Assembly: GCA_000165345.1 (NCBI GenBank)
Contig: CM000434.1
Span: 1,184,001-1,248,000 of the forward strand
Direction of reading: 5' to 3'
Length of the DNA: 64,000 nt
Made by a program: the position numbers and the translations under genes. How positions within the stretch are numbered: position 1 is the stretch's first letter; each line of letters opens with the position of its first letter. This document shows positions 6,717 through 39,844 of this stretch, piece by piece. The notes under the pieces are model-generated. The model was not told the DNA's origin and ran no database searches. It saw only the letters and a program-made list of their open reading frames with translations.

Positions 6717-6740
6717 TTGGCGCCAAAATGGTCCGGTATT
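6717..6740. promoter_or_regulatory. TTGGCGCCAAAATGGTCCGGTATT: GGCGCC (6719-6724) plus CCGGTA element
   Basis: 85 bp upstream of the ATG at 6825. Same bipartite pattern as in other promoters of the window. Confidence 0.5.
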
Positions 6741-6824
6741 AATAGAAATTACAAAGAATATTAAAATTACCAAGGTAGACAAAATTTGCTAGTACAAAAA
6801 GTTTGACTAAAAAGAGAGAGGAAA

Positions 6825-7352
6825 ATGGGTTCAAGCGATAAGGAACTTTCTGCTCTCAGAAGTAACATTAAGGAAAAGGGAGAATTTAGTTATTATTATG
6901 CTCACAAGAACAATTCTCAAGACCTCAAGGATGCAAAGATCTTTGAAGGACCAGGAATAGTAACGGGAGGACAGCCAATTTTGCTGCATAAAGATGATGA
7001 AAAAGAGCCTGTCTCTGACAAGCCTCGAAGTGTTCAGATTAAAAAGTATTCATGGTCAGACTGTGGAGAAAGTATTGAGATTTATATAAGCTTACAGGAT
7101 CTAGCCGAATTGATATCCAGTAAATCACCTCTTGAAATAGCAGGGAAACCAAATTTGGAAGTAACAAATAATACAATTTCATTGGAAGTTTTATCTGAAA
7201 ATACTAACTTCCTTTTTAAAATTGCAAACCTTTCTAACCCTATAGACTCACAACTTTCTAGAGTCAAAGTTTCAGCTAAAAGAATAACAATTATCTGTTT
7301 CAAAGAAGACTCTGAGTTGAAGTGGAACTCCCTTTGTAGGCCAATGTTATAA
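6825..7352 (+). CDS. CS-domain protein, calcyclin-binding protein/SIP (CacyBP)-like, 175 aa
   Basis: IKKYSWSDCGESIEIYISL...KIANLSNPIDSQLSRVKVSAKRITIICFKEDSELKWNSL parallels the CacyBP CS domain (YGWDQSDKFVKIYITL...[35 protein letters not shown]). Confidence 0.7.
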   Translation: MGSSDKELSALRSNIKEKGEFSYYYAHKNNSQDLKDAKIFEGPGIVTGGQPILLHKDDEKEPVSDKPRSVQIKKYSWSDCGESIEIYISLQDLAELISSKSPLEIAGKPNLEVTNNTISLEVLSENTNFLFKIANLSNPIDSQLSRVKVSAKRITIICFKEDSELKWNSLCRPML

Positions 7353-7651
7353 TTTTAAGTTTTGGATTAAATAAGTTACATTAATTTTCTAAATTGATTA
7401 TTTCTTTTTCTTTTATTAGTTCCTTGCCTTTTCCTCCCTCCTGACTTATTCTTGATTATATTGTGTCAACAAAGATCTTTATGGAATTATTGATCATACT
7501 AATAAGTACTTCAAAACTAATATATATTTTTTCCATCCTCAATGTTTAAGCTACTTAGAGTCTTTTGTTGTATAGGTATTCTTTTCAATCTCGCTCTAAT
7601 TAATTGAGTAAAAATTTGAATAAATAAATTAATAAACATCTTTAAAAAAAC

Positions 7652-8570
7652 TTACCCGCATGTTGAACAGATTGGAGCTTTAAATCTTGAACAAAATATT
7701 GATAAGCAAGATGAGCATACATATCCTATTTCAATTTTCTGATGATGACAGAAACATACAGCCAAACCTGTCTGCTTTGTTTTATTAATAGAAATAAAAA
7801 TCTCCTCACGTGCCTGAATAGAAGGTAATAAATGAAAAATCAAAAAAGGAGTCAATCCCTGATCCAACCAATGATGATCCTCCTTATTTATTTCAATGTT
7901 ACTCTCTGCCAAAGAGTCTACAATTTGAGAATACTTTAAATTTAAACCATTACATATATCAACTAAATTATTCAATAAAGGAGATGGATTCCTTGTAACA
8001 CTCACAACATCAATCACCACATCCTGATTCAAAATATTACAATTAATTCAATGTTTAATAATATATGAATAAATAACTTACCAATTTTTGTGATGCAAAC
8101 CCACAATTCAGCAAAGATACATACTGAGAAATATATTCATCTTTATTTGAAGCATCTAACAGTATAATACGATCTTTTTCTGACCTATTATATCCAAACT
8201 TCTTTCTTGTACTATTAATCTTACACAAACACTTTGAAATGGTTGGGCTCATCTTCATCTCGCCCAATGAAATTCTTTCTGAAATCTCCTCTAACATCTT
8301 TGGCATTATCTCAAATTGTAACTCCTTTGTCAAGCCAGATATAAAACCATCAAACAACAAATTCTCGCCTTTTGAGTCGCATAGATATATATTCAGCTTC
8401 TTTTTCTGACCAGTACTAAGATTATATAGCCTTGTGAATTGAAATATTGAATTCAGTACGCATTCTCCCGAAACCAATAAGTTACTTTGAGCATTTGATT
8501 GACTTTCTCCAGTATCCTCATATCTAAATAAACTTCTTGAATCCAGAATTATATATAAAGTCCCCTCCAT
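7652..8570 (-). CDS. TFB4: TFIIH subunit p34/Tfb4 (GTF2H3); exons 8082-8570 and 7652-8023; 58-bp intron 8024-8081 (GTAAGT...AATCAG)
   Basis: The C-terminal zinc motif [35 protein letters not shown] matches GTF2H3 ([32 protein letters not shown]). The two minus-strand ORFs join in phase across the canonical intron. Confidence 0.8.
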
Positions 8571-8620
8571 AGCCTACTTTTTCATTTATCGTTACTTTGA
8601 AATTACCACTTTAATTCCAA

Positions 8621-8630
8621 ATTGGCGCCA
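8621..8630. promoter_or_regulatory. ATTGGCGCCA (GGCGCC 8624-8629), E2F-like palindrome
   Basis: About 50 bp upstream of the TFIIH p34 start, in a short spacer. Confidence 0.45.
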
Positions 8631-8679
8631 ACATTGGAATGATTTTTGTGATCTCAAGACTATTCTAACTTGAATATTT

Positions 8680-9591
8680 TCATGATTTATCACTATAATA
8701 TTCGCTACTATCATCTTCCTTAATATGTTCTAGCTGACTAAACAGTTCACTTGCATTGCTTGGCTTTGGATTATATATTGATCTAGAAGTAAGTTTTTCC
8801 CTTGATTCAATCAAAGGTGACTGTTCATTCTCATCAAGTTCATTATCTTGACTGTATCCTGCATCTCTCAACTCACTGCTAAGACTTTTGTACTTAGAAT
8901 AACTGTTTCTGGGACTTCTACTGATGAGTGAAATTGGCTTCCTTAGTGAGGGCAAATTGATTCCATAATTATAATCTGTAAATGTATGCATTGTTTGTAA
9001 TCTATTACTAACTAATTTATTAATTCCTTGTTCCATTGCATCACTCTTGTTACTAAATCTCTGCATCTCTGTTACATTAATACTTTGAGAATCACTAGTA
9101 ATACCATTATCTTCTGAAGCCATTTGCAGAATTTCGACCATGTACATTCTTAATTGCTCGGATGAAAGACTTGCATAAGTTGGAAGTAGAGTTCCAACTC
9201 CTTGTACAAAATGAGTTCTTACTTGTGTTTCATCAAAACCACTAACTAGTTCCATTATATCTCTTGTTGGCACAATTTTATCATTAAGACTTTGTACAAT
9301 CATCAGACTTTGAAATCTTTCAGGCTCTAATTCCATTCTACTAAACGTAAATCTTCTAAAGTTTATGATAGATGGAGAAAACATTATCACAGGAACTTTG
9401 CTTATCCTTGAGTTTACCTTGCTCACGCTAACTGCTGAAAAATCTGACGTCATAATTATCTCAGGCTTGAAGGCCAATATATTCTTTTCTATTATATCTT
9501 TTGCAACATTTGCACAACGCTTCAATACTATTATCCCAGTTATTCTATACCCTACAATGATTAGAAAAGCCTTTGATTTTTTTTTGTTTTT
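8680..9591 (-). CDS. Hypothetical protein, 3' exon; 5' end unresolved
   Basis: The reading frame stays open upstream of the TTG that the ORF track used as a start, up to a TAA at 9592-9594. No in-frame ATG lies in this stretch, so an upstream exon is required. GTAAGT donors exist on the minus strand near 9626 and 9750, but the phase could not be reconciled. No family confidently recognised. Confidence 0.4.
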   Translation of the reverse strand, partial: KNKKKSKAFLIIVGYRITGIIVLKRCANVAKDIIEKNILAFKPEIIMTSDFSAVSVSKVNSRISKVPVIMFSPSIINFRRFTFSRMELEPERFQSLMIVQSLNDKIVPTRDIMELVSGFDETQVRTHFVQGVGTLLPTYASLSSEQLRMYMVEILQMASEDNGITSDSQSINVTEMQRFSNKSDAMEQGINKLVSNRLQTMHTFTDYNYGINLPSLRKPISLISRSPRNSYSKYKSLSSELRDAGYSQDNELDENEQSPLIESREKLTSRSIYNPKPSNASELFSQLEHIKEDDSSEYYSDKS

Positions 9592-10204
9592 TTAATCTTA
9601 ATCAAATTGAAAATATTTTAAACTTACCATTAAGATTGGTAACACAATCTTCAATCCAAGATTAAAAGATACCAAGAATTCAACTATTCTGTATTATAAG
9701 AAATATAATTAAATTGTTTTTTTCCTAAATTTATTTAATTTAAAACTTACATTAATACTATAAAAATCAGCAATGATATAGCAACATATGAAGTCTTGGA
9801 CCTTATTATTAAAGTTTGATACCTCAAATCTGGAGACCGAATGTATGAAACTCCAACAATCTCCTCTACTTGCTTCTTTCTATATGACTTATAATTATCA
9901 TAGAATCTGCAAAAAAAAAAAATCATTATTATTATTAGAAAATAAGAAAATATTTCTATCATATATTATTGAATTTAATCAACTTCAAACTCACCCATGA
10001 AGATATAATACTCGAATCCCATTCAAATTATCCATTATTCTCGCTATCTCAGTATATTATTCACACTAATTATCCTAAAAACTTTACTATTTCTTGGCAT
10101 TCCAATTCTTAAACTCGATAAAATCCGAAACTTCAACATAATCCTCTTCTTTTTTATGACTCTATTTTTCCATCAACTACTTTTCACAAGTGCCACAAAT
10201 TTGC

Positions 10205-10232
10205 AATGCATGCAGCCCCCTTTGCATGTTTC
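10205..10232. promoter_or_regulatory. GCAATGCATGCAGCCCCCTTTGCATG: TGCATGCA palindrome plus GC-rich block
   Basis: GC-rich island in the spacer upstream of the 8680-9591 gene. The ORF 10173-10364 (-) over it is probably a GC artefact. Confidence 0.4.
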
Positions 10233-10457
10233 CCTTTTGACTGCTATGCCGTCATTCATGCAATGACATAAGTTTTGCCGCCATACGTGGCAGTGTATGT
10301 AAACCTCCCACATGCACAAAGAATAAACTACATTTGAGAAAATAATAAGAAGAAAATTATTCAATATACTATACTGGGAATCTATGTACTAAATGAGAGT
10401 TGCTAATCAATATAAGATGGATGACTCATCTTTTGTGCAATTCTTATAACTAGAAAC

Positions 10458-12485
10458 TCAATAGTGAAAATTATTGATAAAATGGGGTTGCTTCACAACA
10501 GAACTTTCAACCCCAACAAACTTATGGCCATTGTTTGTATAACTTAGAGTGGCTGCAGAGGAGGTATTCACCTGTTGTTGGTTTCTTAATGATGCAGCAA
10601 ACTCGTTATTATAAACTGAATTGTTATCAGAAGACCCTGACAAAAACTGACTGTTTAGCATTAGTTTATGTTGTTGTCCGTCGTTTTTAAAGAACTTGTG
10701 ACCTATTGGAGGATTTGCAGGCCTTAGAGACGTCCCAACTGACTTATAATAGCTTCTCTGGGATTCTGCTAAGTCTTCAGAAACTGGACTCTGACCGCCA
10801 CTATAATTATTAAAATGTGTAGCATGTGAAACATTGTGAATATTTATCTGATTACTACTATTTATGTTTGCCATTGAACTCTTTCCCATACCAATACTTT
10901 GTTTTCCAACTTCACAATATTGTTTCTCATCTTCTATGAAAGTTTGGTGAGAGCTCACATTGTTAGGTATAATATTTGATTTGATTATAGCAATTACCTG
11001 AGGATGCCATAGAATTGGAAAGTTATTATGGAAACAAAATAAAAGCTGTTGAATACAATCTGGGTGAAACAAAGCCTTCTTAATACTCCACCTTGTATTT
11101 GGGTTGGGGTCAGTAAACCCAATAAAGATCTCCCACATGAAGTACTGGCTCTGCTTTAATTGAGTATTCCCTTTTTGTTTTCCTTTACTCAGAATCTTAT
11201 TATTAAAATCACTTCTGATTAGTTCCACTACTTTTAGAATATAAGGAGCTGCTTCTGTAACATCCAATCCTTTCTGTCTGCAAATAAACCTACCAGTGAG
11301 AAACAACAATAAGTTCATTCCAACTGCATAGTTGTCTATCTTTTCGGTTAAAGGACCTTTAAATGTCAATACTTCCGGGGGATTAATTTCAAGTGTTCCT
11401 GGCCATTCTGAGGGGCTCAAATGTAACTTCTTCGTTTGTTCACTCCACCCAAAATCACCTATTACTATTGTTTTATTTGAATATCTTAAAATATTCGTTG
11501 GTTTCAAGTCTCTATGTACTACCCCCTTGTCTTGGAAGTATAATACGCTCTGAATTAGTTGAATAAAGTGCTGGAAGGCTTCCAATTCGCTTACACAACA
11601 GTTCTCACGCCAAATAGTACCATCATCTACATAATCTTGAACTAATAGGCTTCCTTCTGGGCCTACTACGATCTTGTGCAGCCTAACTACACCTGGACAT
11701 TGGCTTACTATGAGATTCTTTATTTCTGACTGAAACATTCTCTCAATCCTTTCTACTGTATCTGAAGGATAAGTATGAGGTTCTAATAGTTTTCCTGCAT
11801 ATTTCTTCCCCGTTATTTTATCTTTCAAAAGCCAAACTTTAGCATAAGTCCCAGTTCCTATCATTTCAAGTCTTTCATATGAACTATAAACGCTTGTATA
11901 TCTTTCATCAATTATTCTTTCCCAATTTGGAATCTTTTTATACCAATCTGCTTCAGTAAATCCTCCCAAGTTCACCTTCTTGTAGTTTGTTTGGTTCAAT
12001 GAGCTTTGAGATCCACTTTTGCTACTCAATTTAGTGTTCTTATCTACAATTCTGGTATCATATTCATGATCTCTTTTCTCAGTAAATTCTTCACTTATTT
12101 GACGTTTATTAGTTTCTAACTGTTGAATTACTCTTGGGGTTTCTGAAATCTCCATGTTTCTGTCAACATAGCTCCCTTCCATTACTCCAACGCTTTTTTT
12201 ATATTCTGATATATTTTGTCTGATTAAGTTTCCATTTCTTCCTAATATATCATTTCTATTGTTCCCTGTAAATTCCATCTCTTCTCCATGTTGTAGAAAC
12301 TTTTTATCAGAATAACCAGAATTAAAGTTATGCTTGAATCTAGGTGTTGAACTTTCATTCCTCATACCATCAGTACCTCCATTATTGATATCCCAAGTGT
12401 GTCTGTTCGGAGTGTCATAAATCCTTGTGTTCCCTGATATATTACACCCTTCGTGAATAGTATACATGATAACATAATCCAGCAA
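10458..12485 (-). CDS. Ser/Thr protein kinase (675 aa) with low-complexity N-terminal extension
   Basis: Kinase subdomains are present: GTGTYAKV...YAGK (glycine loop and VAIK region), VHRDLKPTNIL (catalytic loop), GDFGWS (DFG), and a C-lobe through DPNPNTRWSIKKALFHP. Confidence 0.85.
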   Translation of the reverse strand: MLDYVIMYTIHEGCNISGNTRIYDTPNRHTWDINNGGTDGMRNESSTPRFKHNFNSGYSDKKFLQHGEEMEFTGNNRNDILGRNGNLIRQNISEYKKSVGVMEGSYVDRNMEISETPRVIQQLETNKRQISEEFTEKRDHEYDTRIVDKNTKLSSKSGSQSSLNQTNYKKVNLGGFTEADWYKKIPNWERIIDERYTSVYSSYERLEMIGTGTYAKVWLLKDKITGKKYAGKLLEPHTYPSDTVERIERMFQSEIKNLIVSQCPGVVRLHKIVVGPEGSLLVQDYVDDGTIWRENCCVSELEAFQHFIQLIQSVLYFQDKGVVHRDLKPTNILRYSNKTIVIGDFGWSEQTKKLHLSPSEWPGTLEINPPEVLTFKGPLTEKIDNYAVGMNLLLFLTGRFICRQKGLDVTEAAPYILKVVELIRSDFNNKILSKGKQKGNTQLKQSQYFMWEIFIGFTDPNPNTRWSIKKALFHPDCIQQLLFCFHNNFPILWHPQVIAIIKSNIIPNNVSSHQTFIEDEKQYCEVGKQSIGMGKSSMANINSSNQINIHNVSHATHFNNYSGGQSPVSEDLAESQRSYYKSVGTSLRPANPPIGHKFFKNDGQQHKLMLNSQFLSGSSDNNSVYNNEFAASLRNQQQVNTSSAATLSYTNNGHKFVGVESSVVKQPHFINNFHY

Positions 12486-12787
12486 TCCCTAAATCTCCAA
12501 ATATTCACCAAATAATTGCTTCTCCTATGTCTGATAACACACTCCTATTATTATCGTAATTAATCTCTGATAGACTCTGGTATATACCACATTCAAGCTT
12601 ATTGACAATTTGATGTACTTCAAGCCTTAAATCTGTATATATTTCTTCTAATTTTAACCAAATTCCATCAAATAAATTACAAAAAAAGAGTTCTCAATCT
12701 CCAAAAGAGCTGGTAAACTCCTTATTTCCTGAATACCTCCTTCACTTGTGTGTCCCCAATTTTCCTATTTTTATTGCACCCTCCATA

Positions 12788-12805
12788 CCCGTCATGTGTG
12801 ACGGG
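12788..12805. promoter_or_regulatory. Perfect inverted repeat CCCGTCA-TGTG-TGACGGG
   Basis: Read directly. It lies about 300 bp upstream of the kinase ATG (12485). It could be a palindromic TF site or a hairpin. Confidence 0.35.
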
Positions 12806-13009
12806 TATGTATTTGCACGCCTGTCACTCTAAAATACCCGTACGGATGAGATACATTTCAAATCATTCCAATAACTCACATTTGTCTACTTAATTATGAA
12901 AGAATTCTCACCTTTTTCGAAAACATCACCTAATATCCAAATAACCCATTTTACTTAAGATTCCGAAATTTGAAGTTTTTTTTATTTGCATGTTTTGCCC
13001 GCCAAAACT

Positions 13010-14473: not shown

Positions 14474-14571
14474 TATTGAGATTCTTTGACTTTTAAAAAA
14501 CTCTATTTAGACTTTTTTTTACCCCTCTTTTCCCCCTAAAATTTTTTTTATTAAATATTTAAAAAAAAATT

Positions 14572-14610
14572 CCCCTATACCGGCCTTTATTTATTGCCCT
14601 ATACCGGTGT
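14572..14610. promoter_or_regulatory. Direct repeat CCCTATACCGG (14573-14583; 14598-14608), the second copy as ATACCGGTGT
   Basis: About 100-135 bp upstream of the ribophorin ATG. It belongs to the recurring ATACCGGT motif family. Confidence 0.5.
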
Positions 14611-14820
14611 TGCTGCATTAAGTAACTTGGCACACAAAAAATTCAAATTAGCTAAAAATTGCAAAAAATTTGGCAGTAAGCCAATAGAAACGAAACTTAA
14701 AACAGAAACTAACAACTTTCTAATTATCAAAACTTAGTGTTTAGCTAGTTATGCCTCTATTTAAGCCTAACAACAATCTACTAGTACCAATATTAACATA
14801 TAATTTGTGAGTTTCACTCC

Positions 14821-16416
14821 TTAAACTCCTTGCCTTTGTCTAGGAGCGCAACGTATAATATCGTCAACTCTCAAAATCATCTCAGCTGCCTCAGTAGCTG
14901 AACAGATCTGAGAGAGTTTTGATTCAAATGACTCAAGGATGCCAAGTTCCTTCATATCTCCAGGTTGAGCAACTTTAAAATCAATTCCATAGGTACTACT
15001 ACCCTTATAGTGAAGAGCTCTAAGTTTAGTAACAATCTCAGCACTATCATAGCCTCCATTATCCAAGAGAATAGTGGGAATTTGTCTCAATGCATTAGCA
15101 AATGCCTCAATTGCAAGACTCTTTTTTCCTTCAACTCTCTTAGAAAGTTCATCAACCGAGACACTCATTAACATTTCACTACATCCACCACCATAAACCA
15201 CTCTTCCATCACTAACAGTTTGGAAAAGAACTGCCAGAGCATCATGAAGACTTCTTTCAGCCTCATCAAGTATATGAGAAGATGCTCCTCTTAATACAAT
15301 GGTGCATGCTTGGTTTTTAGCACATCCAGAAAAGCGGATAAACTCGTCTTCTCCAATCATAATGGTATCCATAAGTTCACAAGTTCCAAGAACTGTTTTT
15401 TCTGGATTATCAAAAGTACTAACAATATCTGCTCCTAATACAGCTCCAAGTCTCTCAACTCCTTCAAAGTCTGCATGTTCTATGGCAACAATTCCAGCCT
15501 CTTTGAATAATTGATCAGGATAGTTATAAATAAGTTGTCTATTAATGAATACATTACATCCATGCTTGAGGATTTTCTGGACTTTATTATACATTTTCTT
15601 CTTTTCTGCTTGTTCAATTTCCTGAACAGTATCCATACTATCAACAGTGACTTTAGCACCGTAGATCTTAATTTTGTCAGTATCCATTGGGGTATTTGCT
15701 ACCAAGATTTTACAGTTTCTCATAACCTTTGGTTGGCCAACTCCAATCTTCTTTTCAAGAATGAATCCTTCTTCTAAGAAGGAGTCCTGTAGTGATCCTC
15801 CAACTTTTTTGATGATTTGGATGTAGTCCAAATTCATGTTATCTCCAAGTCTAAGAATAGCTTTTAAAGCTAAGTTAGCAAAATGATCCTTCTCAATAGT
15901 GAGAAGTTTTGAACTTAGAGTAGTTCTTGCTATATTTAGTAAATCAGTTTCAAAAGCTGAACGATTTTCACGGTTATTAAAGGAATTTGAGCTTAAAGCT
16001 TTTCTAGCCTCCTCTAAAGCCATTCTATATCCAGCAATAATAACTTGAGGATGAATCTTCTGATCCAATAATCTCTCAGCTTGTTTAAGTAATTCTGAAG
16101 CTAAAATAACAACTCCCGTTGTACCATCTCCACATCTATTGTCTTGTTGTTTACTGATATCAACCAATATCTTGGCAGCTGGATTGTCAATTGAAATAGA
16201 CTTCAAAATAGTAGCACCATCATTAGTTACTATAGGAGTAGAGTCAATTGGGCCTTCCTTTATTGGCTGTAATATTTTATCCATTCCCTTTGGACCAAAA
16301 GTAGTTTTCAAAAGATCTCCTATTGCTATTGCTCCTACAATTGACTGGAGTCTAGCTAATTCACCCTTGCTCTCCTGAGCTCCATCATCCATGATCTTCG
16401 GTACGACTGATGTCAT
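14821..16416 (-). CDS. CCT2: T-complex protein 1 subunit beta (CCT2 chaperonin)
   Basis: Near-colinear identity to CCT beta throughout: [131 protein letters not shown]. Confidence 0.95.
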
Positions 16417-16665
16417 CTTAGTCTTTTCAGTTCACCTCTTTTAAGAAAATTTCCTTTAAAATTGGAAGAAGAACTTTCTGCCCCAAAATACTAGTCTTTA
16501 TTATTTAATTCCTCAATGACATTAAGGATAGTTATTACCCCTCCTTTTTTCTACTTCCCACTTATATTTACCATACAAGTAAAAAAATTTCAAAGCTTAA
16601 GTCTTAATTTCCCGCCTATTTTTTTTTATTTTTGATCTTTACTTATTACTTCTGTCTTTTAATCA

Positions 16666-16703
16666 ATACCGGTACTTTTTGAGGCGGGCAAACTGTGGCG
16701 CCG
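16666..16703. promoter_or_regulatory. ATACCGGTAC ... GAGGCGGGCAAA ... TGGCGCCG (ACCGGT palindrome, E2F-like GGCGGG, GGCGCC 16698-16703)
   Basis: Located upstream of the CCT beta ATG (16416). Three motif classes sit within 40 bp. Confidence 0.55.
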
Positions 16704-18581: not shown

Positions 18582-18638
18582 ATTTCACTCTTTTTTCCCC
18601 ATTAATTATTTCATTTCATTATTGACATTTTTTGTGTT

Positions 18639-18680
18639 GGCGCCTGTTTATTTTTATATACCGGTGTTCCACGTAATTAA
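18639..18680. promoter_or_regulatory. GGCGCC (18639-18644) ... TATACCGGTGT (18656-18666) ... CACGTAATTA
   Basis: 60-80 bp upstream of the ECD ATG, in a divergent spacer shared with PIG-V. Confidence 0.55.
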
Positions 18681-19118: not shown

Positions 19119-19160
19119 ATTTAAGAAAAGAAATCTCCATAACTTATATTCTTATCACAA

Positions 19161-20607: not shown

Positions 20608-20646
20608 ATATACCGGTGTTAAGGTATCTAACATGCAAATGGCGCC
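20608..20646. promoter_or_regulatory. ATATACCGGTGT (20608-20619) ... CATGCAAATGGCGCCAAAC (GGCGCC 20641-20646)
   Basis: About 100-130 bp upstream of the ATG at 20739. Confidence 0.55.
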
Positions 20647-21303: not shown

Positions 21304-30323
<9,020 letters not shown>

Positions 30324-30460
30324 ATAGCAATAGATGAAATATAATTAAGTATATAGAATCCAGAATTTCAGATCAAAAAAGCAATAATAACTGTAATTTT
30401 TTTGGTAAAGTTGTAATGTCTAATTCATTATTATTATTTTTTGACAAAATAAATTTTGAT

Positions 30461-30496
30461 TTTTCGATACCTTATACCGGTATATAAAAAGGCGCC
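30461..30496. promoter_or_regulatory. TTTTCGATACCTTATACCGGTATATAAAAAGGCGCCAACTG: ACCGGT palindrome (30476-30481), TATA-like, GGCGCC (30491-30496)
   Basis: Divergent spacer between the PZP exon (ATG 30323, minus) and Trm5 (ATG 30652, plus). Confidence 0.55.
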
Positions 30497-30651
30497 AACT
30501 GTCAAAAAAGAAAATAAATCTGAAAAATAAAACTGGGTGGGAAAAAGAGTAAATGAAAAAAAAAATAATAATAATAAATAAAAAATAAAAGTAATAATAT
30601 TAGTAATAACAAAATAAATAAAACATTATTATTAATATTAAAAAGTAAAGA

Positions 30652-32046: not shown

Positions 32047-32086
32047 ATTGTATAAGATTCTTACTAATGCCATTAACTGCATTTCA

Positions 32087-32135
32087 GGCGCCATTAAGAG
32101 GCGCCATGTGTGTAATCATGTAATACCGGTATACG
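32087..32135. promoter_or_regulatory. GGCGCCATTAAGAGGCGCCATGTGTGTAATCATGTAATACCGGTATAC: two GGCGCC copies (32087-32092, 32100-32105) plus ATACCGGTATAC (32124-32135)
   Basis: Located between the Trm5 stop and the lectin gene ATG (32444). Confidence 0.55.
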
Positions 32136-32443
32136 AGACAGGTATCAATGAATAGATATTTAAAATGATAAAAAAAAGAAAAAGAATTTAGAAATTTTTT
32201 AGTTGGTGGTGGGGTAAAGTTTTACAGAAAATTAACCGTAGAAAAAATTCGAGAAATTCTTGAATTTATCAAAATTGAGATTTGGCGAATAAAGGTATAT
32301 ATGGGAATTGAGGTTTTATGAATCTCTGAAATAACCTAGAATAGAGAGAAGATTTAATATAAAGCTTTAAAAGGGTTTTCTTTTCTTATCTTTGAAATTA
32401 TTTGTATTTTTTTTAAAATAATTTTTATTAAATTTCAAGACAT

Positions 32444-33865: not shown

Positions 33866-33954
33866 TTATAAAGCTATTCTTAAAGAGTATTTCATTATAG
33901 TTTATATTTCAGATTTTTTCCTGATTTTAATATATCTTTTTTGAGTTTAATCTT

Positions 33955-35334
33955 TTATTCATTAATCTCAGAATGGGATTCAGATTCTTCATGTTTACAT
34001 TTTATACCCAAACTTGATAACTTGTTTATTAGTGTAGTGAAAAAGTTTGGATCTGGAAATCCGTGTAAAGCTGGCCCTCCACAAGTTGAAATCTTATGTG
34101 GAATATTGCCCCATTGAACAATTTCCATAGATGATCCTGTTGAAGGATTAGTAATACTGTTCACTTTGAATGTATGGCCAAGTTGGAAAGCTTTAGCAAG
34201 TCCATCAAGCATTATGAGACCTTTTTTATTAAATGGTAAATATGCAATTTTGTATGTTCCTGTATATAACTTATTTGGACTTGGATGTCTCTGATTTTGG
34301 ATACCACTTGGAATAAAATATTCAATTTCAATCACATTTGTATTAGGATAACTTTCTATCTCAATATTTCCAGATTTATAAACAATATATCTCATTTTCC
34401 CAGGAGGTGAATTTCCTCTTCCAAAGCATTGTGGAGTCATACAAAGTGGGCATAACAAAGCTGTTTTGTTATTCAGATGACTTATCATATCATTTAAACA
34501 CTCTGAATGGAAAACATGCGAACATTTATTCAGCTTGACTAAATCCCTATTCAGAGCATCCAAACATAAACAACAATCATCATCCACTTGTGCTTGTTCT
34601 AGTAACTTGGATACAGTAAAGTCAATTTCTTGCTTAGTGAATGCATTAGAGTATCCTTCACAATTAAATTCTCCAGTCTCAACAATTATTGAAAGTGCAT
34701 CTTGGATTTGAGGTTTACTAGTATCAGTAAATTCCCATTCCAAATTAAAATCATTTTCCTTATCTGAATCTTGAGAATTGTCAGTAACTTCGTATTCTAC
34801 CTTCTTTAAATATCTTCTATAAATCTTTCTTTCTTTTCCAGTAATTCTATTCACTTGAACACATTCTATTGGGTAGATATCATACTGGTTCCAAACAACG
34901 CACTCTCCAGATTTTGGTCTTTTAACCAATTCATTATTAATAGCTGGTTGTAGGGCGTCAGAACCTTTGCATGATTTCTGACAATTATTATGACTATGAT
35001 GACTATTCTCATCATTTTGCGATTCTTTATAAAGGTTCCATTGAATATGCAGATAAAATCTCTCAATTTGAGCAGATACATTTGGTTGGTAAAGGTTTAA
35101 CTGATCATCATTATCTGTCCAGAACCATACAGCTGAAGAAATATCTCTACTTATCCTTCTGTGACGTTGAGTAATGAAGTTAAATTGGTAAAAGTGCCGG
35201 AGATTAAGTAGAAATGGTATTCCTCCAACATTGATGATTATGTTAACTTCTTTTTTTCTCCATGATTTCTCAATAACAGCAGAGTTTTCCAAAGAATAAT
35301 AAACCCATCCTTCATCTGACCACCAACGCCACAT
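33955..35334 (-). CDS. Deltex-like E3 ubiquitin ligase: two WWE domains, RING-H2, Deltex C-terminal (DTC) domain
   Basis: WWE 1 is WRWWSDEGWVYYSLENSAVIEKSW...QRHRRISR. WWE 2 is VWFWTDNDDQLNLYQPNVSAQIERFY. The RING is CCLCLD...CSHVFHSEC...CPLC. The DTC matches human DTX1 closely: SPPGKM against QPPGKM; YFIPSGIQNQRHPSPNK against YDIPTGIQGPEHPNPGK; AYLPFNKKGLIMLDGLAKAF against CYLPNNEKGRKVLRLLITAW; IVQWGNIPHKIS...HGFPDPNFFTTLINKL against VVWNEIHHKTEF...HGYPDASYLDNVLAEL. Confidence 0.85.
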   Translation of the reverse strand: MWRWWSDEGWVYYSLENSAVIEKSWRKKEVNIIINVGGIPFLLNLRHFYQFNFITQRHRRISRDISSAVWFWTDNDDQLNLYQPNVSAQIERFYLHIQWNLYKESQNDENSHHSHNNCQKSCKGSDALQPAINNELVKRPKSGECVVWNQYDIYPIECVQVNRITGKERKIYRRYLKKVEYEVTDNSQDSDKENDFNLEWEFTDTSKPQIQDALSIIVETGEFNCEGYSNAFTKQEIDFTVSKLLEQAQVDDDCCLCLDALNRDLVKLNKCSHVFHSECLNDMISHLNNKTALLCPLCMTPQCFGRGNSPPGKMRYIVYKSGNIEIESYPNTNVIEIEYFIPSGIQNQRHPSPNKLYTGTYKIAYLPFNKKGLIMLDGLAKAFQLGHTFKVNSITNPSTGSSMEIVQWGNIPHKISTCGGPALHGFPDPNFFTTLINKLSSLGIKCKHEESESHSEINE

Positions 35335-35806
35335 CCTTGATAAAGTTCATGCGATTTCCACCTCTGAGATATTCTTGATTAATTAGCTATTCTGCTAATT
35401 TTTTTAAGAAAATGTAAGATAATCTTTTCTCACATTCCAGCATAAATATGTGGGATTTTTCTTTGTAAATTCTATAAAAAGACTCTCCACAAACGACTTT
35501 TACTCTTAAAATAAGAAAAAGAAAAACCTCACTAATAGTCCATTTTTTACATTTGAGAAATTTTCCACACTATTTTTGCTGACATTTTTACATTTTAAAA
35601 TGTTTACAAATTTACTTCTTCAAACGTTTTCAAAGAAAAAACAATATGATTTGGTCTTTTAGAAACTTATGCAGGAGTTTATTCTTATTTTATCACTTCA
35701 AAAATTCCCATAAATCTCCAAATTACACAAATTTTCTCTCATTTTTACATCTTCACCTTTTTGACTGTTTTGCAAATTAAACTCCCCACACTGTATGACT
35801 ATTATT

Positions 35807-35848
35807 GGGCGCCTAAAACACTTGCAAAGTGGTTGCATGCATGCATGC
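35807..35848. promoter_or_regulatory. GGGCGCCTAAAACACTTGCAAAGTGGTTGCATGCATGCATGCAA: GGCGCC plus (GCAT)3GC
   Basis: Divergent spacer between the Deltex-like gene (ATG 35334, minus) and the CKK-domain gene (ATG 36015, plus). Confidence 0.55.
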
Positions 35849-36014
35849 AAAGTTTGTAAATTGTCAATTACGTGGAGGCATAGCAAAAAAGTAGTGTAAA
35901 TATATTGAAAAGGTATCACAAAAAAAGATTTTTTTGTAAAGATTGTAGTAATCTTAATTTATTATTTTTTTTTAAATAAAGTTTGTTTAGGACCATTATT
36001 TAAAGAAAGTTAGT

Positions 36015-37046
36015 ATGGCAAGTATGAGCAGACATTACAACAATATATCAGAACTTCCATATATTGATTTAGATAGAATTGAAGAGTTGAGAAGACAGAA
36101 TGATAGATGCTGCTGCAATTCCAGAGGGGAGAAGTTATACCAAAGAAATTGCATGGATTATCAATACTCGAAAAGAGAAGGTTGTATAAGAGAAAGGAGA
36201 GGATATTGTGATTTTGAGTTGGATGAACTTAGAGAAGATGATGGATGTATTCATGGAATAAGATTCTATAAAGACTCGAATTTGGATCAAAATTACGATT
36301 TGGGATTTGAAAAAAATTGTAATAGACTTCCAATCTTACACTCAAATTGTAAATTAAGAACAATGAACGATAGTAACTACTATTCTAACAATGGTAATAA
36401 TTGCATATATTGCAATGCTAGTCTAGAAAGAACTTCAAATACCAGAGAACGGGATTTTTTTAATGGACAGGATAGAAGAGTGCATTCTTATAGTAAACAG
36501 TGTTTATCAGAAGATTCAGATACTAATGATTACAAAGATATAGGACAAGAATATAATTCAGATTATGAATATAGAAGAGGCCAAAACGTCTCAAGAAACA
36601 ACTGTGAAAGACAGTTTTCAGATGAGTATTCAGATTTATCAGAGGATATGGAAGTGGTTATCAAAAGAAATAATAGAAATGTAATATCTCTAGCATTAAA
36701 TTGGATCAGTCTTTCAGGAGAACACAATAAAAAAATTAGAAAGTTTGTAATGGATTCAATGAACTCTATTGAGTTAAAAGATTTAAATCACTTTATAATT
36801 TTATTCCAGTACGATGATCATAAAGGTATACGCGGACTTTACTCATTTTTCCAGAAAGAAAACAATTGGCAATGTGTAGTTGAAATTGTACCAAATTGTC
36901 CAAAAGTTATACGCAAAGAAATGGTGCATACATTGTATAAGTTTGACACTAGTCAGAAACTATTCAAGCCTATAAATAGATCAAAAAAGATTACAGATAT
37001 TGTTGATGGATTAAGTATAAAGAATGAATATTTAAGTACTCAATAA
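36015..37046 (+). CDS. CKK-domain protein (CAMSAP/Patronin-type microtubule minus-end binding domain) with Cys-rich N-terminal half
   Basis: C-terminal NHFIILFQYDDHKGIRGLYSFFQKENNWQCVVEIVPNCPKVIRKEMVHTLYKFDTSQKLFKPINRSKKITDIVDGLSI parallels the CAMSAP CKK sequence NHFLILFRDSSCQFRALYTLSGETEELSRLAGYGPRTVTPAMVEGIYKYNSDRKRFTQIPAKTMSMSVDAFTI. Confidence 0.7.
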   Translation: MASMSRHYNNISELPYIDLDRIEELRRQNDRCCCNSRGEKLYQRNCMDYQYSKREGCIRERRGYCDFELDELREDDGCIHGIRFYKDSNLDQNYDLGFEKNCNRLPILHSNCKLRTMNDSNYYSNNGNNCIYCNASLERTSNTRERDFFNGQDRRVHSYSKQCLSEDSDTNDYKDIGQEYNSDYEYRRGQNVSRNNCERQFSDEYSDLSEDMEVVIKRNNRNVISLALNWISLSGEHNKKIRKFVMDSMNSIELKDLNHFIILFQYDDHKGIRGLYSFFQKENNWQCVVEIVPNCPKVIRKEMVHTLYKFDTSQKLFKPINRSKKITDIVDGLSIKNEYLSTQ

Positions 37047-37052
37047 TAAAGG

Positions 37053-39530
37053 CTAAACCATTAGCTTTAATTCCGACATTTGACTTTGGAACAAGTTATA
37101 GTTGGCCTGGACTCCTACAGTTCCTACAAGTCTTTCAGGATGCAATGCAGGAAGGCCAAGAATTTGTTCAATACTTGGAATTTGATCAATATTTGGATTC
37201 AACATGGCATTCAAAAGTTCCTTCACATGACTAGATAACTTTAAGTATAGGTTATCATTTTTTGATTCAAAGCTATAATATTCTCCAGTTAAGCAAAAGT
37301 ATAAAAGAACACCAATCATATAAATATGTATTTTTTCAAAAATGTCACAAAAGCGTCCAATGTCCATTAGTTTATTCTTAAGGAGCTTAATGTTATCTAT
37401 ATTAAATATATAACCGTCAGAATTAATGGTATCTTTAATAATTGGAGGAAAATAATTAACAATATCATCATTTTTTTGGCCTTGAGTAAAGCTACTACAT
37501 CGCATCAAGTTTGTTGGATATTTCTTCTTAAAAACAATATCGTCTTGTAGTGAGTCAACCTTCGAGTCTAAATCAATTAGATCCAATGGCCCTAATAATA
37601 AACAACTCTCTTCTTTTCTAATGTATACTCTACTTGCTTTTATTGGGAAAATAAAACTTTTCATTTTTTGTTTACCATTATCTTCTTTGAAGGAGGAGAA
37701 CAAAAAGAAAAGCCTTAGAAGAGACCTAATATACATTAAAGACGTGGACTCTCCAAGAACTCCATTTAAATTTATATATGAAAGGATATCATAGCATTCC
37801 ATATGAGGATAAATCTCAACAATTGTAGAGTTTAAAGACAAAGGAGTATACCATTCAAATATTCCAGAGCATAATACAATATCAGAGACTCCTTGATTCA
37901 TTTGCCTGTTCCTAATACTTTTCGAGTTTAACAAAGAATGGACATTACAATTTTGTTTGAGAAACGAAATAATTTCTAAAGGAACTTCTTTTTCTTTCAT
38001 TTGGCTAATTTGTGAGTTGAAGGCATTCTTAATAATTCTCAATCTTTCAAATGATTCTTGCATCACTACTTTCAACTTGTGAGTATTGGAGGAAATGGAT
38101 ACATTAGAAGAGAACATTGATTCCCTCTGGATTTCATTCTTTGCTGAAAAATCCAGTCTATATAGCTTCAGTACACAGGGAACTAGTTCAGTAAAGTCAA
38201 AAGCTGTCCAGCAGATACTCCTTCTTCCAATACCAATGGGATTTAGGAACATGTGGCGATTATTCACAGTAGAAGGAAAGTTCGAAAGAGGCGAAGATTC
38301 CAAAAGCTTTAGAATATTTGATAATTTAATCAGTAAATTCCTTTTTGTCTTTAAGGCTGACTCCTTTTCTTGAAGTTTATCACTAAGATACCTGGAAAGA
38401 ACTGACCTACAATGCAGACTAAGCTCACTATCGTCGTTAATCATCTTGTTTTCAAGATTCCGATAATTACTATATGATTCATCATCCTCAAAACCCATTT
38501 CATTAAAAGATGAAGAAAAGATGGAGTTATTATCTTGGCTATTCAAATGACTCCGTATTAACTTCCCTTGTAATTCTGCTATTTTATGATGCTGATTTAC
38601 CAAGTCCATTGCATCTGCTCCCATATACCAAGAAGTATTCTTAATATGAACAATCTCCTTATCTTGGCTCATTCCAACATCATCCATAGTTTGGATATCC
38701 GAAAATTTGTCTAATCTCGGAAATCCTACTTGAGAAGTCAAATAATTAATGCAAATGTGCAAAAGTTTTCTTTCTGAGATCGTTAGTTGTCTAAGTCTTG
38801 GTTTAAGAAGGCGAATACCTCTCTCAAGCTCATTTTCTATTGAAAGTTGAAGTTCAATATTAATCTTCATCTCTTGTTCAAGACAATCTATTTGGTTCAT
38901 ACAATCTTGCCAATTTTCCATGAAAGCATTAAAATCTTCTTCATTTACCTGCTCAATCAACTCCTGAGATAACTCTACTGTTTCATAAAGCTTCGATGAA
39001 GCTGGCTGGGTATTTGCAAAGAATATTGGACTCTCAAAGTTGTCAGTTAATCCAATAGGACAAGATCCTGTTGCATTTGGTTCAGAAAACCGTCTTTCAA
39101 ACATTTCAAACTTTTCTGGATTAATCTTTGACCAAAGCATTCCTCTTAAACCTCTGAAATCAATTGGATCTGGGGCTTCACCCCTTTGGCTATCTAATTC
39201 ACCATTATTCATTTCAGAATCTTCTCCTAGACTGTCTTTTGATTGGAACTCTTGGCTTGCAGGACAAGCAACAATATCACCACATCGACACATTCCATTT
39301 TCAAAGTCATTACAGCATTCTCCTTTCAATTTCTTATGACTAATGGCTTCGAGAACTCTTGGCTCTCTAAAATTCTGTGGATAAATTAAAACACCAGGAA
39401 CTGGTCTATAACCCGTTCTTTTGGGGGCATTTCTAAGAAACAGCTTTCTTATATCTAACTGGTTGGATCTTTTTAGTTCATCTCCCAAACCAGAATCCTT
39501 ATTTTTTCTGGATCGCTTTCTTTTGCTCAT
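37053..39530 (-). CDS. Protein kinase-like protein (probable pseudokinase or atypical kinase) with basic N-terminus and Cys-knuckle
   Basis: The N-terminus has a KRKRSRK NLS-like stretch and CCNDFENGMCRCGDIVACP. The C-terminal region shows a recognisable kinase C-lobe (YMIGVLLYFCLTGEYYSFE; ELLNAMLNPNIDQIPSIEQIL). The catalytic motifs are degenerate (NIDNIKLLKN in place of HRDLKxxN; DIG in place of DFG). Confidence 0.55.
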   Translation of the reverse strand: MSKRKRSRKNKDSGLGDELKRSNQLDIRKLFLRNAPKRTGYRPVPGVLIYPQNFREPRVLEAISHKKLKGECCNDFENGMCRCGDIVACPASQEFQSKDSLGEDSEMNNGELDSQRGEAPDPIDFRGLRGMLWSKINPEKFEMFERRFSEPNATGSCPIGLTDNFESPIFFANTQPASSKLYETVELSQELIEQVNEEDFNAFMENWQDCMNQIDCLEQEMKINIELQLSIENELERGIRLLKPRLRQLTISERKLLHICINYLTSQVGFPRLDKFSDIQTMDDVGMSQDKEIVHIKNTSWYMGADAMDLVNQHHKIAELQGKLIRSHLNSQDNNSIFSSSFNEMGFEDDESYSNYRNLENKMINDDSELSLHCRSVLSRYLSDKLQEKESALKTKRNLLIKLSNILKLLESSPLSNFPSTVNNRHMFLNPIGIGRRSICWTAFDFTELVPCVLKLYRLDFSAKNEIQRESMFSSNVSISSNTHKLKVVMQESFERLRIIKNAFNSQISQMKEKEVPLEIISFLKQNCNVHSLLNSKSIRNRQMNQGVSDIVLCSGIFEWYTPLSLNSTIVEIYPHMECYDILSYINLNGVLGESTSLMYIRSLLRLFFLFSSFKEDNGKQKMKSFIFPIKASRVYIRKEESCLLLGPLDLIDLDSKVDSLQDDIVFKKKYPTNLMRCSSFTQGQKNDDIVNYFPPIIKDTINSDGYIFNIDNIKLLKNKLMDIGRFCDIFEKIHIYMIGVLLYFCLTGEYYSFESKNDNLYLKLSSHVKELLNAMLNPNIDQIPSIEQILGLPALHPERLVGTVGVQANYNLFQSQMSELKLMV

Positions 39531-39785
39531 ATATTCAATATTTTAATATAATTAATCCTATTTATTCTTCGGTTTAACTTAAATATACCCCACTATACAT
39601 ATTATTTCTCAATTTATACTCTTTCAAATTTACCTCGAGAAATCAAAATGGATCAAATTGCTCAATTCAAAAATTAAATTCGTCAAAGCTGGCAAATAAT
39701 CATCTTCTGTTTTCGAAATCTTAAAATATAAATTTCTAAACCCCTCTCACAATTAAAAAAAAGAACAAAAAAATTATAAAAGCTT

Positions 39786-39844
39786 TCCGGTACCCAAAGT
39801 CCGGTATATAAAGAGAAAAAAATGTAACACACTTTGGCGGTAAA
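39786..39844. promoter_or_regulatory. TTCCGGTACC ... GTCCGGTATATAAAG ... TTTGGCGGTAAA (CCGGTA elements x2, TATA-like, E2F-like TTTGGCGG)
   Basis: About 260-310 bp upstream of the ATG at 39530 (minus). Confidence 0.45.

What the first reader, a model, noticed from the sequence alone, without database searches (positions are those of the whole stretch)
6717..39844. Recurrent palindromic ATACCGGT(G/A)T element paired with GGCGCC in at least eight promoters
(A)TACCGG(T) occurs at 6732, 14576, 14601, 16666, 18656, 20610, 30474, 32124, 39787 and 39800. Every copy lies in an intergenic spacer within roughly 60-320 bp of a start codon. Most copies sit within 10-40 bp of a GGCGCC or GGCGGG motif. For an 8-mer this GC-rich in roughly 30% GC DNA, fewer than one copy is expected in 64 kb. 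Six of the sites share the longer form ATACCGGT(G/A)T or TATACCGG. GGCGCC itself occurs 11 times and every copy is intergenic, against about 0.7 expected. The GGCGCC (E2F-like) and GCATGC classes are known over-represented upstream motifs in Cryptosporidium. The ACCGGT-core element does not, to my knowledge, correspond to a named motif. It may be a distinct cis-element, a transcription-start or initiator-like signal, or a site for an unknown factor that cooperates with E2F/DP.
Basis: partly seen in the sequence, partly recalled or inferred. Interest (0 to 1): 0.65.

Follow-up and report, generated by a model that had tools for sequence, protein, structure and literature searches.

The report
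Conserved CCGGTAT promoter element in Cryptosporidium
A short DNA word (CCGGTAT, often as the palindrome ATACCGGTAT) sits in gene promoters of the parasite Cryptosporidium parvum, usually 13-29 bases from an E2F site, and has been kept at the same promoters across several Cryptosporidium species, so it is very probably the docking site of a still unidentified gene regulator.

Summary
The window is Cryptosporidium parvum chromosome 6. CCGGTAT occurs 11 times on both strands against 0.75 expected, and every copy lies in an intergenic spacer. GGCGCC occurs 11 times against 0.28 expected, also only between genes.

The element is not chance, a dispersed repeat or a known RNA. In orthologous spacers of seven other Cryptosporidium species, CCGGTA is kept at 7 of the 8 C. 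parvum sites. That is 16 shared spacer-species pairs against 2.1 expected, second only to GGCGCC. It is the only 6-base invariant run in the six-species ribophorin I promoter alignment.

Refinements to the finding:
- The conserved core is asymmetric, (A)CCGGTAT, and reduces to CGGTAT in distant species. The palindrome is optional.
- GGCGCC is not an obligatory partner. Six of eight spacers carry it. Where both occur they lie 13-29 bp apart, and the spacing is conserved.
- Orientation and distance to the ATG vary, which argues against an initiator or an RNA element.

Best reading: an orientation-independent transcription-factor site in the promoter, factor unknown. It is absent from the Cryptosporidium motif catalogues I could read. 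The same word is an orphan promoter motif in oomycetes. Genome-wide enrichment and position relative to transcription starts could not be tested.

The parts
6733..6739 (+). CCGGTAT copy 92 bp upstream of the 175-aa CS-domain gene (ATG 6825). Single half only (AATACCGGACC on the other strand).
   Evidence: NOT conserved in C. ubiquitum, C. canis or C. felis, although the adjacent GGCGCC is. This is the weakest member.
6719..6724 (.). GGCGCC (E2F-like) site, 13 bp from the 6733 copy
   Evidence: Conserved in orthologous spacers.
14577..14583 (-). CCGGTAT copy, proximal of two direct copies upstream of ribophorin I (ATG 14473)
   Evidence: The two-copy arrangement is kept in C. ubiquitum, C. canis, C. 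felis, C. bovis and C. ryanae.
14601..14610 (-). ACACCGGTAT copy, distal of the two upstream of ribophorin I, 24 bp from the first
   Evidence: In the six-species alignment (A1) the only invariant run of 5 or more bases is CCGGTA, at the column of the proximal copy (14577-14583). This distal copy aligns only in C. parvum, C. ubiquitum and C. canis.
16666..16675 (-). GTACCGGTAT copy 251 bp upstream of CCT-beta (ATG 16416)
   Evidence: CGGTA is invariant in the six-species alignment of this spacer (C. parvum, C. ubiquitum, C. canis, C. felis, C. bovis, C. ryanae). C. serpentis also carries it (CTATACCGGTATAT).
16697..16702 (.). GGCGCC site, 29 bp from the 16667 copy
18658..18667 (-). ACACCGGTAT copy 78 bp upstream of SGT1/ecdysoneless (ATG 18581), in a divergent spacer shared with PIG-V
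   Evidence: Kept in C. ubiquitum and C. canis with the same spacing to GGCGCC (21/18/20 bp). C. serpentis has TTTAGGCGGTATC.
18639..18644 (.). GGCGCC site, 21 bp from the 18659 copy
20610..20619 (-). ACACCGGTAT copy 128 bp upstream of MPP6 (ATG 20739). CCGGTAT reads antisense to the gene.
   Evidence: Kept in C. ubiquitum and C. canis (spacing to GGCGCC 29/28/30 bp). C. serpentis has TTTAGGCGGTATA.
20641..20646 (.). GGCGCC site, 29 bp from the 20611 copy
30474..30483 (.). Palindromic ATACCGGTAT in the divergent spacer between the large PHD-finger gene (ATG 30323) and TRM5/TYW2 (ATG 30652)
   Evidence: Kept in C. canis, C. felis and C. ryanae.
30491..30496 (.). GGCGCC site, 15 bp from the 30475 copy
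30464..30472 (+). TCGATACCT, a possible extra half-site abutting the 30475 copy. The composite CGATACCTTATACCGG is identical in a different promoter of C. felis.
   Evidence: Tentative: the word alone is not enriched in the window.
32123..32132 (.). Palindromic ATACCGGTAT about 320 bp upstream of the ERGIC-53-like lectin gene (ORF from 32444, first ATG 32456)
   Evidence: Kept in C. canis. Absent in C. felis, C. ryanae and C. muris.
32087..32105 (.). Two GGCGCC sites (32087-32092 and 32100-32105), the nearer one 25 bp from the 32124 copy
39787..39807 (+). CCGGTAC (39787-39793) and CCGGTAT (39801-39807), 14 bp apart and about 260 bp upstream of the 825-aa gene (ATG 39530). Both are antisense to it.
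   Evidence: The pair and its 14-bp spacing are kept in C. canis. C. felis has one copy and C. ryanae three. C. muris has none.
39833..39842 (+). TTTGGCGGTA, an E2F-like half-site overlapping CGGTA, near the 39801 copy
   Evidence: Similar GGCGGTA words occur in C. serpentis, C. felis and C. canis.

Best explanation
The element is a promoter cis-regulatory site: double-stranded DNA recognised by a sequence-specific protein that has not been identified. The recognised core is (A)CCGGTAT, with CGGTAT as the minimum. ATACCGGTAT is two overlapping or inverted copies of that core. The site lies in the middle of short intergenic spacers, usually 13-29 bp from an E2F/DP-type GGCGCC site. It therefore probably sits in the same nucleosome-free promoter patch and contributes to the activity of mostly housekeeping genes independently of orientation.

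Shown: the over-representation, the strictly intergenic location, the conservation at orthologous promoters, and the conserved spacing to GGCGCC. Inferred: that a protein binds it, that it activates transcription, and that it cooperates with E2F/DP. The family of the factor is a guess. A Myb-type domain is plausible, because TACCGG is one base away from the Myb element TAACGG and plant R2R3 Mybs read YACC cores (my own knowledge, not tested).
For: - **Enrichment.** CCGGTAT is 11 against 0.75 expected, and no copy is coding. ATACCGG is 11 against 0.43 in intergenic DNA under a Markov model.
- **Conservation.** CCGGTA recurs in orthologous spacers of C. ubiquitum, C. canis, C. felis, C. bovis, C. 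ryanae and C. serpentis, even though locus G+C ranges from about 26% to 48%.
- **Shared-word test.** CCGGTA is shared in 16 spacer-species pairs against 2.1 expected, and ATACCGG in 12 against 0.69. Only GGCGCC does better, at 17 against 0.44.
- **Alignment.** CCGGTA is the sole invariant run of 5 or more bases in the ribophorin I spacer alignment. CGGTA is invariant in the CCT-beta spacer.
- **Density.** Intergenic against genic density is 1.78 against 0.06 per kb in C. ubiquitum and 1.74 against 0.11 in C. canis.
- **Spacing to GGCGCC.** It is 13-29 bp in all six C. parvum spacers that hold both (random placement P about 5e-5). It is conserved per gene: 29/28/30 bp for MPP6 and 21/18/20 bp for SGT1.
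- **Orientation.** Mixed orientation fits an upstream factor site.
- **Open chromatin.** E2F motifs mark open chromatin at C. parvum promoters in sporozoite ATAC-seq (bioRxiv 10.1101/2025.01.17.633476). Sites 13-29 bp away are therefore inferred to lie in the same open patch.
Against: - No binding, expression or transcription-start data were available.
- Only about 74 kb of C. parvum and about 190 kb of orthologous loci were examined, so genome-wide enrichment is unproven.
- In 9 kb of extra C. parvum sequence only one further copy was found. Earlier genome-wide motif screens did not report the word. It may therefore serve a modest gene set or be locally dense here.
- One C. parvum copy (6733) is not conserved.
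- The gastric species C. muris has no copy at any orthologous spacer, and C. serpentis has one clear copy.
- Co-occurrence with GGCGCC at spacer level is not significant.
Confidence: 0.7

Rival explanations
1. It is a core-promoter or start-site-selector element. A factor bound to it would fix where RNA polymerase II starts, as the Myb-like protein M3BP does at Motif 3 in Trichomonas vaginalis.
For: - The distance to the ATG is conserved for each gene across species: CCT-beta 256/243/230/254 bp, MPP6 123/145/136 bp, ribophorin I 134/148/119/111 bp.
- Some copies run into TATA-like sequence, for example CCGGTATATAAA at 30477 and 39801.
- A Myb-like core-promoter factor is a known precedent in a protist (PMC4450334).
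Against: - CCGGTAT reads sense at five sites and antisense at three, and two sites are palindromic.
- Distances to the ATG differ widely between genes, from 13 to 349 bp across genes and species.
- Two or three copies occur per promoter.
- No public transcription-start map was available to test the idea. The 2025 preprint states that explicit start-site annotation is lacking.
Confidence: 0.13
2. It is the site of a general regulatory or boundary factor, like yeast Reb1. Such a factor would hold a nucleosome-free gap and block read-through between tightly packed transcription units, rather than activate particular genes.
For: - The site lies mid-spacer, between the stop of one gene and the ATG of the next, in spacers of 250-590 bp.
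- It is orientation independent.
- The genes served have unrelated functions.
- CCGGTAT resembles the Reb1 site CCGGGTAA (my own knowledge).
- C. parvum transcripts overlap extensively and some are polycistronic.
Against: - Only 8 of 16 spacers compared carry it.
- The sequence is not the Reb1 consensus.
- Nothing here tests termination or nucleosome positioning.
Confidence: 0.1
3. It acts at the RNA level, as a 5'UTR element (CCGGUAU) that affects translation or stability.
For: Most non-palindromic copies read CCGGTAT in the sense of the downstream gene, five of eight. The site lies 78-320 bp from start codons, where a 5'UTR could begin.
Against: - Three conserved sites are antisense: MPP6 and both u825 copies.
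- No Rfam family matches anywhere in the window.
- The spacing to a DNA element (GGCGCC) is conserved.
Confidence: 0.03
4. It is chance, base composition, or remnants of a dispersed repeat.
For: The word is short and only one genomic region was examined.
Against: - None of 100 shuffles reached the observed counts.
- The word is conserved across species with very different G+C.
- No longer repeat family includes the copies.
- The flanks are unrelated.
Confidence: 0.01

Closest known systems
Oomycete orphan promoter palindrome: Phytophthora infestans M94 (TACCGGTA; Roy et al. 2013, PMC3597505), Phytophthora motif-9 (GTACCGGTA; Seidl et al. 2012, PMC3520976), Plasmopara halstedii streme-5 (ATACCGGTAT; PMC10031896)
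   Same: The word is identical to the palindromic copies here (ATACCGGTAT at 30474 and 32123, GTACCGGTAT at 16666). In oomycetes it also lies upstream of genes, is abundant (upstream of 1,284 Phytophthora genes and 206 Plasmopara genes) and has no known factor. Oomycetes and apicomplexans both belong to the SAR supergroup.
   Different: In oomycetes it was found through expression correlation and is enriched at effector (RXLR) genes. Here it sits at housekeeping genes beside E2F sites. Here the selected core is the asymmetric CCGGTAT/CGGTAT. Common ancestry of the binding factor is untested, and an 8-mer could recur by convergence.
Cryptosporidium E2F-like motif (TGGCGCCA / TTTGGCGGGAAA)
   Same: Both are strictly intergenic, strongly over-represented and conserved at orthologous promoters. 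The two lie 13-29 bp apart in six spacers.
   Different: The sequences are unrelated: a CCGG core against a GCGC core. Each occurs without the other, for example ribophorin I and u825 without GGCGCC, and Tfb4, SPT6 and a kinase gene without CCGGTAT.
Myb recognition elements (YAACKG) and Trichomonas Motif 3 with its Myb-like binder M3BP
   Same: TACCGG differs from TAACGG at one base. Motif 3 is a short promoter-proximal word read by a Myb-like protein in a divergent protist. C. parvum has 16 annotated Myb-domain proteins, several of unknown specificity.
   Different: The AAC core that defines Myb elements is not present. No binding data exist.
Grainyhead/CP2 site AACCGGTT
   Same: It shares the palindromic ACCGGT core. 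The C. bovis and C. ryanae copies read AACCGGTA.
   Different: The flanks in the C. parvum clade are TA...TA, not AA...TT. To my knowledge (not tested) the family has been described only from animals and fungi.
Drosophila DRE (TATCGATA) next to E2F sites in replication-gene promoters
   Same: It is a short palindromic housekeeping-promoter word that works beside E2F sites. The possible co-motif TCGATACCT contains TCGATA. This rests on my own knowledge of DRE/DREF.
   Different: The sequence and factor family (BED finger) are different. No such factor is known in Cryptosporidium.

Membership tests
E2F/DP binding site | Core (T)TTSGCGCS, with a central GCGC or GGCGG | tested here: not met
   The CCGGTAT copies contain no GCGC. 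The neighbouring GGCGCC sites do meet it.
ApiAP2 motifs known for C. parvum (AP2_1 TGCATGCA, AP2_2 GCACAC, G-box G.GGGG, GTGTGT, GCGTGCA) | Match to a specificity determined by protein-binding microarray | tested here: not met
   None of the listed primary motifs contains CCGG or CGGTAT. No CCGG string occurs in the AP2 paper's text. Secondary specificities, and the AP2 proteins whose domains gave no DNA binding in the microarray assay, were not testable.
Oomycete TACCGGTA motif (M94 / motif-9 / streme-5) | The word TACCGGTA located upstream of genes | tested here: met
   TACCGGTA is exact at 16667, 30475 and 32124, and at the CCT-beta promoter of C. serpentis. The other copies carry only one good half.
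Oomycete TACCGGTA motif (M94 / motif-9 / streme-5) | Same or homologous binding factor | not testable with these tools
   The factor is unknown in both lineages.
Myb recognition element | YAAC(G/T)G core | tested here: not met
   The sites read (T/C)ACCGG, so the third base is C rather than A in all 38 sites compiled.
Initiator / TATA-type core promoter element | Fixed orientation and a narrow distance to the transcription or translation start | tested here: not met
   CCGGTAT reads sense at five sites and antisense at three, and two sites are palindromic. Distances to the ATG range from 13 to 349 bp. The distance to the true transcription start was not testable.
Dispersed repeat / mobile-element remnant | Similarity extending beyond the short word | tested here: not met
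   No repeat family of 16 nt or more includes the copies.
Structured non-coding RNA or tRNA | Match to an Rfam model or a tRNA fold | tested here: not met
   No Rfam match at gathering score and no tRNA in the window.
Functional cis-regulatory element (generic) | Conservation at orthologous non-coding positions above background | tested here: met
Functional cis-regulatory element (generic) | Genome-wide upstream enrichment, and an effect on expression | not testable with these tools

The most novel reading that the evidence does not exclude
CCGGTAT/TACCGGTA and its unknown binding protein could be an ancient promoter system shared by stramenopiles (oomycetes) and the early-branching apicomplexan Cryptosporidium. 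Like E2F/DP, it would have been retained in Cryptosporidium and lost from other apicomplexans. That would give two orphan motifs in two pathogen groups one common, discoverable factor.
Probability: 0.15. Interest if true: 0.7.

Novelty: new member of a known kind. Interest (0 to 1): 0.5.

Why it matters
Gene regulation in Cryptosporidium is poorly understood. The current list of promoter motifs has six families, and most transcription factors have no assigned site. A further motif that is conserved across the intestinal species and sits beside the dominant E2F sites gives a concrete bait for finding a new regulator, by DNA pull-down or protein-binding arrays. It also gives a defined sequence to mutate in reporter constructs. 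The match to an orphan oomycete motif hints at a wider distribution. The find is incremental rather than surprising: one more promoter element, not a new kind of system.

Tried and rejected
- **Known RNAs.** An Rfam scan and a tRNA scan of the whole window found nothing.
- **Dispersed repeat.** No family includes the copies.
- **Literature.** I searched for the word in Cryptosporidium papers. The only hits were primers, apart from the oomycete papers. Bankier et al. 2003, which analysed this very chromosome, is not held. From memory, its abstract reports only two abundant motifs, but I could not check that.
- **A proteostasis/ER regulon.** The motif sits at CCT-beta, SGT1/ecdysoneless, a CS-domain protein, ribophorin I and an ERGIC-53-like lectin. 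I rejected the regulon idea as unsupported. MPP6, TRM5 and a PHD-finger gene also carry the motif, and a second TCP-1 chaperonin gene 12 kb away lacks it.
- **Strict palindrome or dimer site.** The left half is weakly constrained: A at position -1 in 24 of 38 sites, and no preference beyond it.
- **TCGATACCT as an established co-motif.** It lies next to the element in several species, but it is not enriched by itself in the window (11 against 6.2 expected with one mismatch).
- **Obligatory E2F partnership.** Not supported at spacer level.
- **Extending the C. parvum sample.** Only about 9 kb more could be fetched. Look-ups were then exhausted, so C. hominis, C. bovis (second cluster) and non-Cryptosporidium alveolates were not examined.


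Full report
**Source and gene context.** The CCT-beta ORF at 14821-16416 (minus strand) is 100% identical to the Cryptosporidium parvum protein. The surrounding DNA matches C. parvum chromosome 6 at about 1.19-1.25 Mb of CP044417 and BX526834. Genes are nearly intron-free, so long ORFs plus the public gene calls on the matching loci give the gene map.

The motif-bearing spacers precede these genes:
- a 175-aa CS-domain protein
- ribophorin I
- CCT-beta
- SGT1/ecdysoneless, divergent with PIG-V
- MPP6
- a large PHD-finger protein, divergent with TRM5/TYW2
- an ERGIC-53-like lectin
- an 825-aa protein with no Pfam match

| Word (both strands) | Observed | Expected |
|---|---|---|
| TACCGG | 14 | 2.14 |
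| CCGGTAT | 11 | 0.75 |
| ACCGGT | 6 | 1.07 |
| GGCGCC | 11 | 0.28 |

All CCGGTAT and all GGCGCC copies lie outside long ORFs. The only coding TACCGG is at 2740. Judged against the intergenic DNA itself (13.6 kb, second-order Markov model), ATACCGG is 11 against 0.43 and ACCGGTAT is 8 against 0.10. This word family ranks third, behind GGCGCCA and GCATGCA. The 20611 copy appeared to lie between two converging genes. It is in fact 128 bp upstream of the annotated MPP6 gene.

**Is it only a local statistical oddity?** I fetched the orthologous regions of seven other species through ribophorin I, CCT-beta and a deltex-like RING protein. The species are C. ubiquitum, C. canis, C. felis, C. bovis, C. 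ryanae, C. serpentis and C. muris. Gene order is conserved, and locus G+C ranges from about 26% to 48%.

CCGGTA recurs in the same spacers:
- upstream of MPP6 in C. parvum, C. ubiquitum and C. canis
- upstream of SGT1 in the same three species
- upstream of CCT-beta in C. parvum, C. ubiquitum, C. canis, C. felis and C. serpentis
- upstream of ribophorin I, as two copies, in six species
- upstream of the 825-aa gene in C. parvum (two copies), C. canis (two, same 14-bp spacing), C. felis (one) and C. ryanae (three)
- upstream of the lectin gene in C. parvum and C. canis
- in the TRM5 / PHD-finger divergent spacer in C. parvum, C. canis, C. felis and C. ryanae

In a six-species alignment of the ribophorin I spacer, CCGGTA is the only invariant run of five or more bases. 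In the CCT-beta spacer, CGGTA is invariant.

I ran an unbiased test on all 6- and 7-mers present in 16 C. parvum spacers and shared with the orthologous spacers of the six more distant species. CCGGTA is shared in 16 pairs against 2.1 expected, and ATACCGG in 12 against 0.69. Only GGCGCC is both as widespread and more conserved, at 17 against 0.44. Intergenic against genic density of the word is 1.78 against 0.06 per kb in C. ubiquitum and 1.74 against 0.11 in C. canis. It is weaker in C. felis, C. ryanae and C. bovis, and zero in C. muris. The copy at 6733 is the exception: it is not conserved, although its neighbouring GGCGCC is.

**Anatomy.** I compiled 38 intergenic sites from all species.
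- On the right-hand side, after CCGGTA (fixed by how the sites were selected), the next base is T in 27 sites and C in 8.
- On the left-hand side, only the base before CCGG is biased: A in 24 of 38 sites.

The element is therefore asymmetric, (A)CCGGTAT. The 10-bp palindrome ATACCGGTAT is the special case in which both strands carry the word.

In the more distant species the first C can be lost while CGGTAT stays in place. Examples are GTCGGTATAG upstream of CCT-beta in C. bovis and C. ryanae, and TTTAGGCGGTAT upstream of MPP6 and SGT1 in C. serpentis.

Relative to the downstream gene, CCGGTAT reads sense at five C. parvum sites and antisense at three, and two sites are palindromic. Distance to the ATG is conserved for each gene but differs between genes, from 13 to 349 bp. 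No longer repeat contains the copies. No Rfam family or tRNA is present.

**Relation to GGCGCC.** Six of the eight C. parvum spacers with the element also have GGCGCC. In all six the two lie 13-29 bp apart centre to centre. Random placement within the spacers gives this with P of about 5e-5, and the same holds for the other species taken together. The spacing is conserved per gene: 29/28/30 bp for MPP6 and 21/18/20 bp for SGT1. The order and relative orientation of the two words are not fixed.

At the level of whole spacers the association is weak (Fisher 0.07 in C. parvum and 0.03 in C. canis). It is absent in C. bovis, C. ryanae and C. felis, where the element occurs without GGCGCC. The two words therefore share a compact promoter patch when both are present, but neither needs the other. 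Published ATAC-seq shows that E2F motifs mark open chromatin at C. parvum promoters. By inference the element lies in the same open region.

**What it most likely is.** The element shows strict exclusion from coding DNA and conservation at orthologous positions through large shifts in base composition. It also shows copy-number variation within a promoter, independence of orientation, and a conserved short distance to another factor's site. This is the usual signature of a transcription-factor binding site acting from the promoter's nucleosome-free region. I commit to that reading with confidence 0.7.

The factor is unknown. None of the specificities measured for C. parvum AP2 domains fits. 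The word is one base from the Myb element TAACGG, and C. parvum has Myb proteins of unknown specificity. A Myb-type reader is therefore my first guess, resting on my own knowledge and untested.

The rivals are:
- a start-site selector, like Trichomonas Motif 3 and its binder M3BP
- a Reb1-like boundary factor
- an RNA-level element

The first and third are disfavoured by the mixed orientation and variable distances. None could be tested decisively, because no transcription-start map is public.

**Comparison with what is known.** The word is absent from the 25 motifs of the genome-wide study of 2013 and from the motif and AP2 tables of a 2025 review. It is also absent from the 2007 and 2010 motif papers, and from every Cryptosporidium paper in the library except as part of primers. 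The 2003 paper on this chromosome could not be read.

The same palindrome is, however, a predicted and still orphan promoter motif in oomycetes:
- M94, TACCGGTA, in Phytophthora infestans
- motif-9, GTACCGGTA, upstream of 1,284 Phytophthora genes
- streme-5, ATACCGGTAT, upstream of 206 Plasmopara halstedii genes

Whether this reflects a shared factor or coincidence is open.

**Limits.** I could examine only the 64-kb window, 9 kb beyond it and about 190 kb of orthologous loci. The extra 9 kb held one more copy (GGTACCGGTACC), and its E2F sites were of the GGCGGG type. The density in 6.7-40 kb of the window may therefore exceed the genome average. That would also explain why earlier screens did not report the word. 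Gene models are ORF-based or taken from public calls. Spacer alignments between distant species are uncertain outside the conserved blocks.

**Verdict.** This is a real, conserved promoter element, new for Cryptosporidium as far as the accessible literature shows. It is an ordinary kind of thing: a transcription-factor site. Interest is moderate.

Noticed in passing
window 44218-47187: 1,766 single or short runs of N are scattered through about 3 kb. ORFs called there are unreliable. This also explains the apparent G+C of 10-15%. It looks like a low-quality or masked stretch of the source record.
   Followed up: partly
window 18670, 35868, 51862, 51873, 52151: ATTACGTG / CACGTAAT occurs 5 times in intergenic DNA against 0.10 expected. 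One copy is 6 bp from the 18659 CCGGTAT site, and two are in tandem at 51862/51873. It has a bZIP-like ACGT core and may be a further promoter motif.
   Followed up: no
window 30464-30472 and 61623-61631; L009 3938, L014 5393, L001 11911, L012 9662, L002 7779, L016 3165 and 13385: TCGATACCT lies next to CCGGTAT/CGGTAT or to E2F-like sites in several species, including the gastric ones. The 16-mer CGATACCTTATACCGG is identical in two different promoters of two species. The word is not enriched on its own in the window. It may be an extra ATACC half-site for the same factor.
   Followed up: partly
L016 (C. muris) and L002 (C. serpentis), all spacers: GGCGCC is almost absent from the orthologous spacers of the two gastric species (0 and 1 copies, against 5 in half of the C. 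parvum set). GGCGG-type words persist. The palindromic E2F form and CCGGTAT therefore seem to be features of the intestinal lineage.
   Followed up: partly
window 21304-30323 (minus strand): The 2,711-aa ORF and the 221-aa PHD-finger ORF upstream of it are annotated as one gene in other assemblies and species (2,897 aa in CP044417; PHD domains at the N-terminus in C. ubiquitum, C. canis, C. felis and C. ryanae). In C. muris they are called separately.
   Followed up: no
window 12486-13009 and 9526-10457 (orthologous spacers RPN1|PK and PK|unk): Blocks invariant across six species occur in spacers that lack the element: GGGTGCAA, GTCACAC and AGTGAC in one, and TGGCGGCAA in the other. These are other conserved promoter words or unannotated exons.
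   Followed up: no
window 35835-35848, 42930-42965; L017 21711-21720 and 23844-23853: There are tandem runs of GCATGC (GCATGCATGCATGC) in spacers. This is the known AP2_1 word present as arrays.
   Followed up: no
L017 21243-21937: A spacer between two converging genes holds GGTACCGGTACC, GCATGCATGC and GGCGGGAAA. Promoter-type words where no promoter is annotated may point to an unannotated transcript.
   Followed up: no
window 22223-22625: A CT-rich imperfect 9/15-nt periodic repeat lies inside the large ORF. It encodes the E/G/R/K-rich low-complexity stretch.
   Followed up: no
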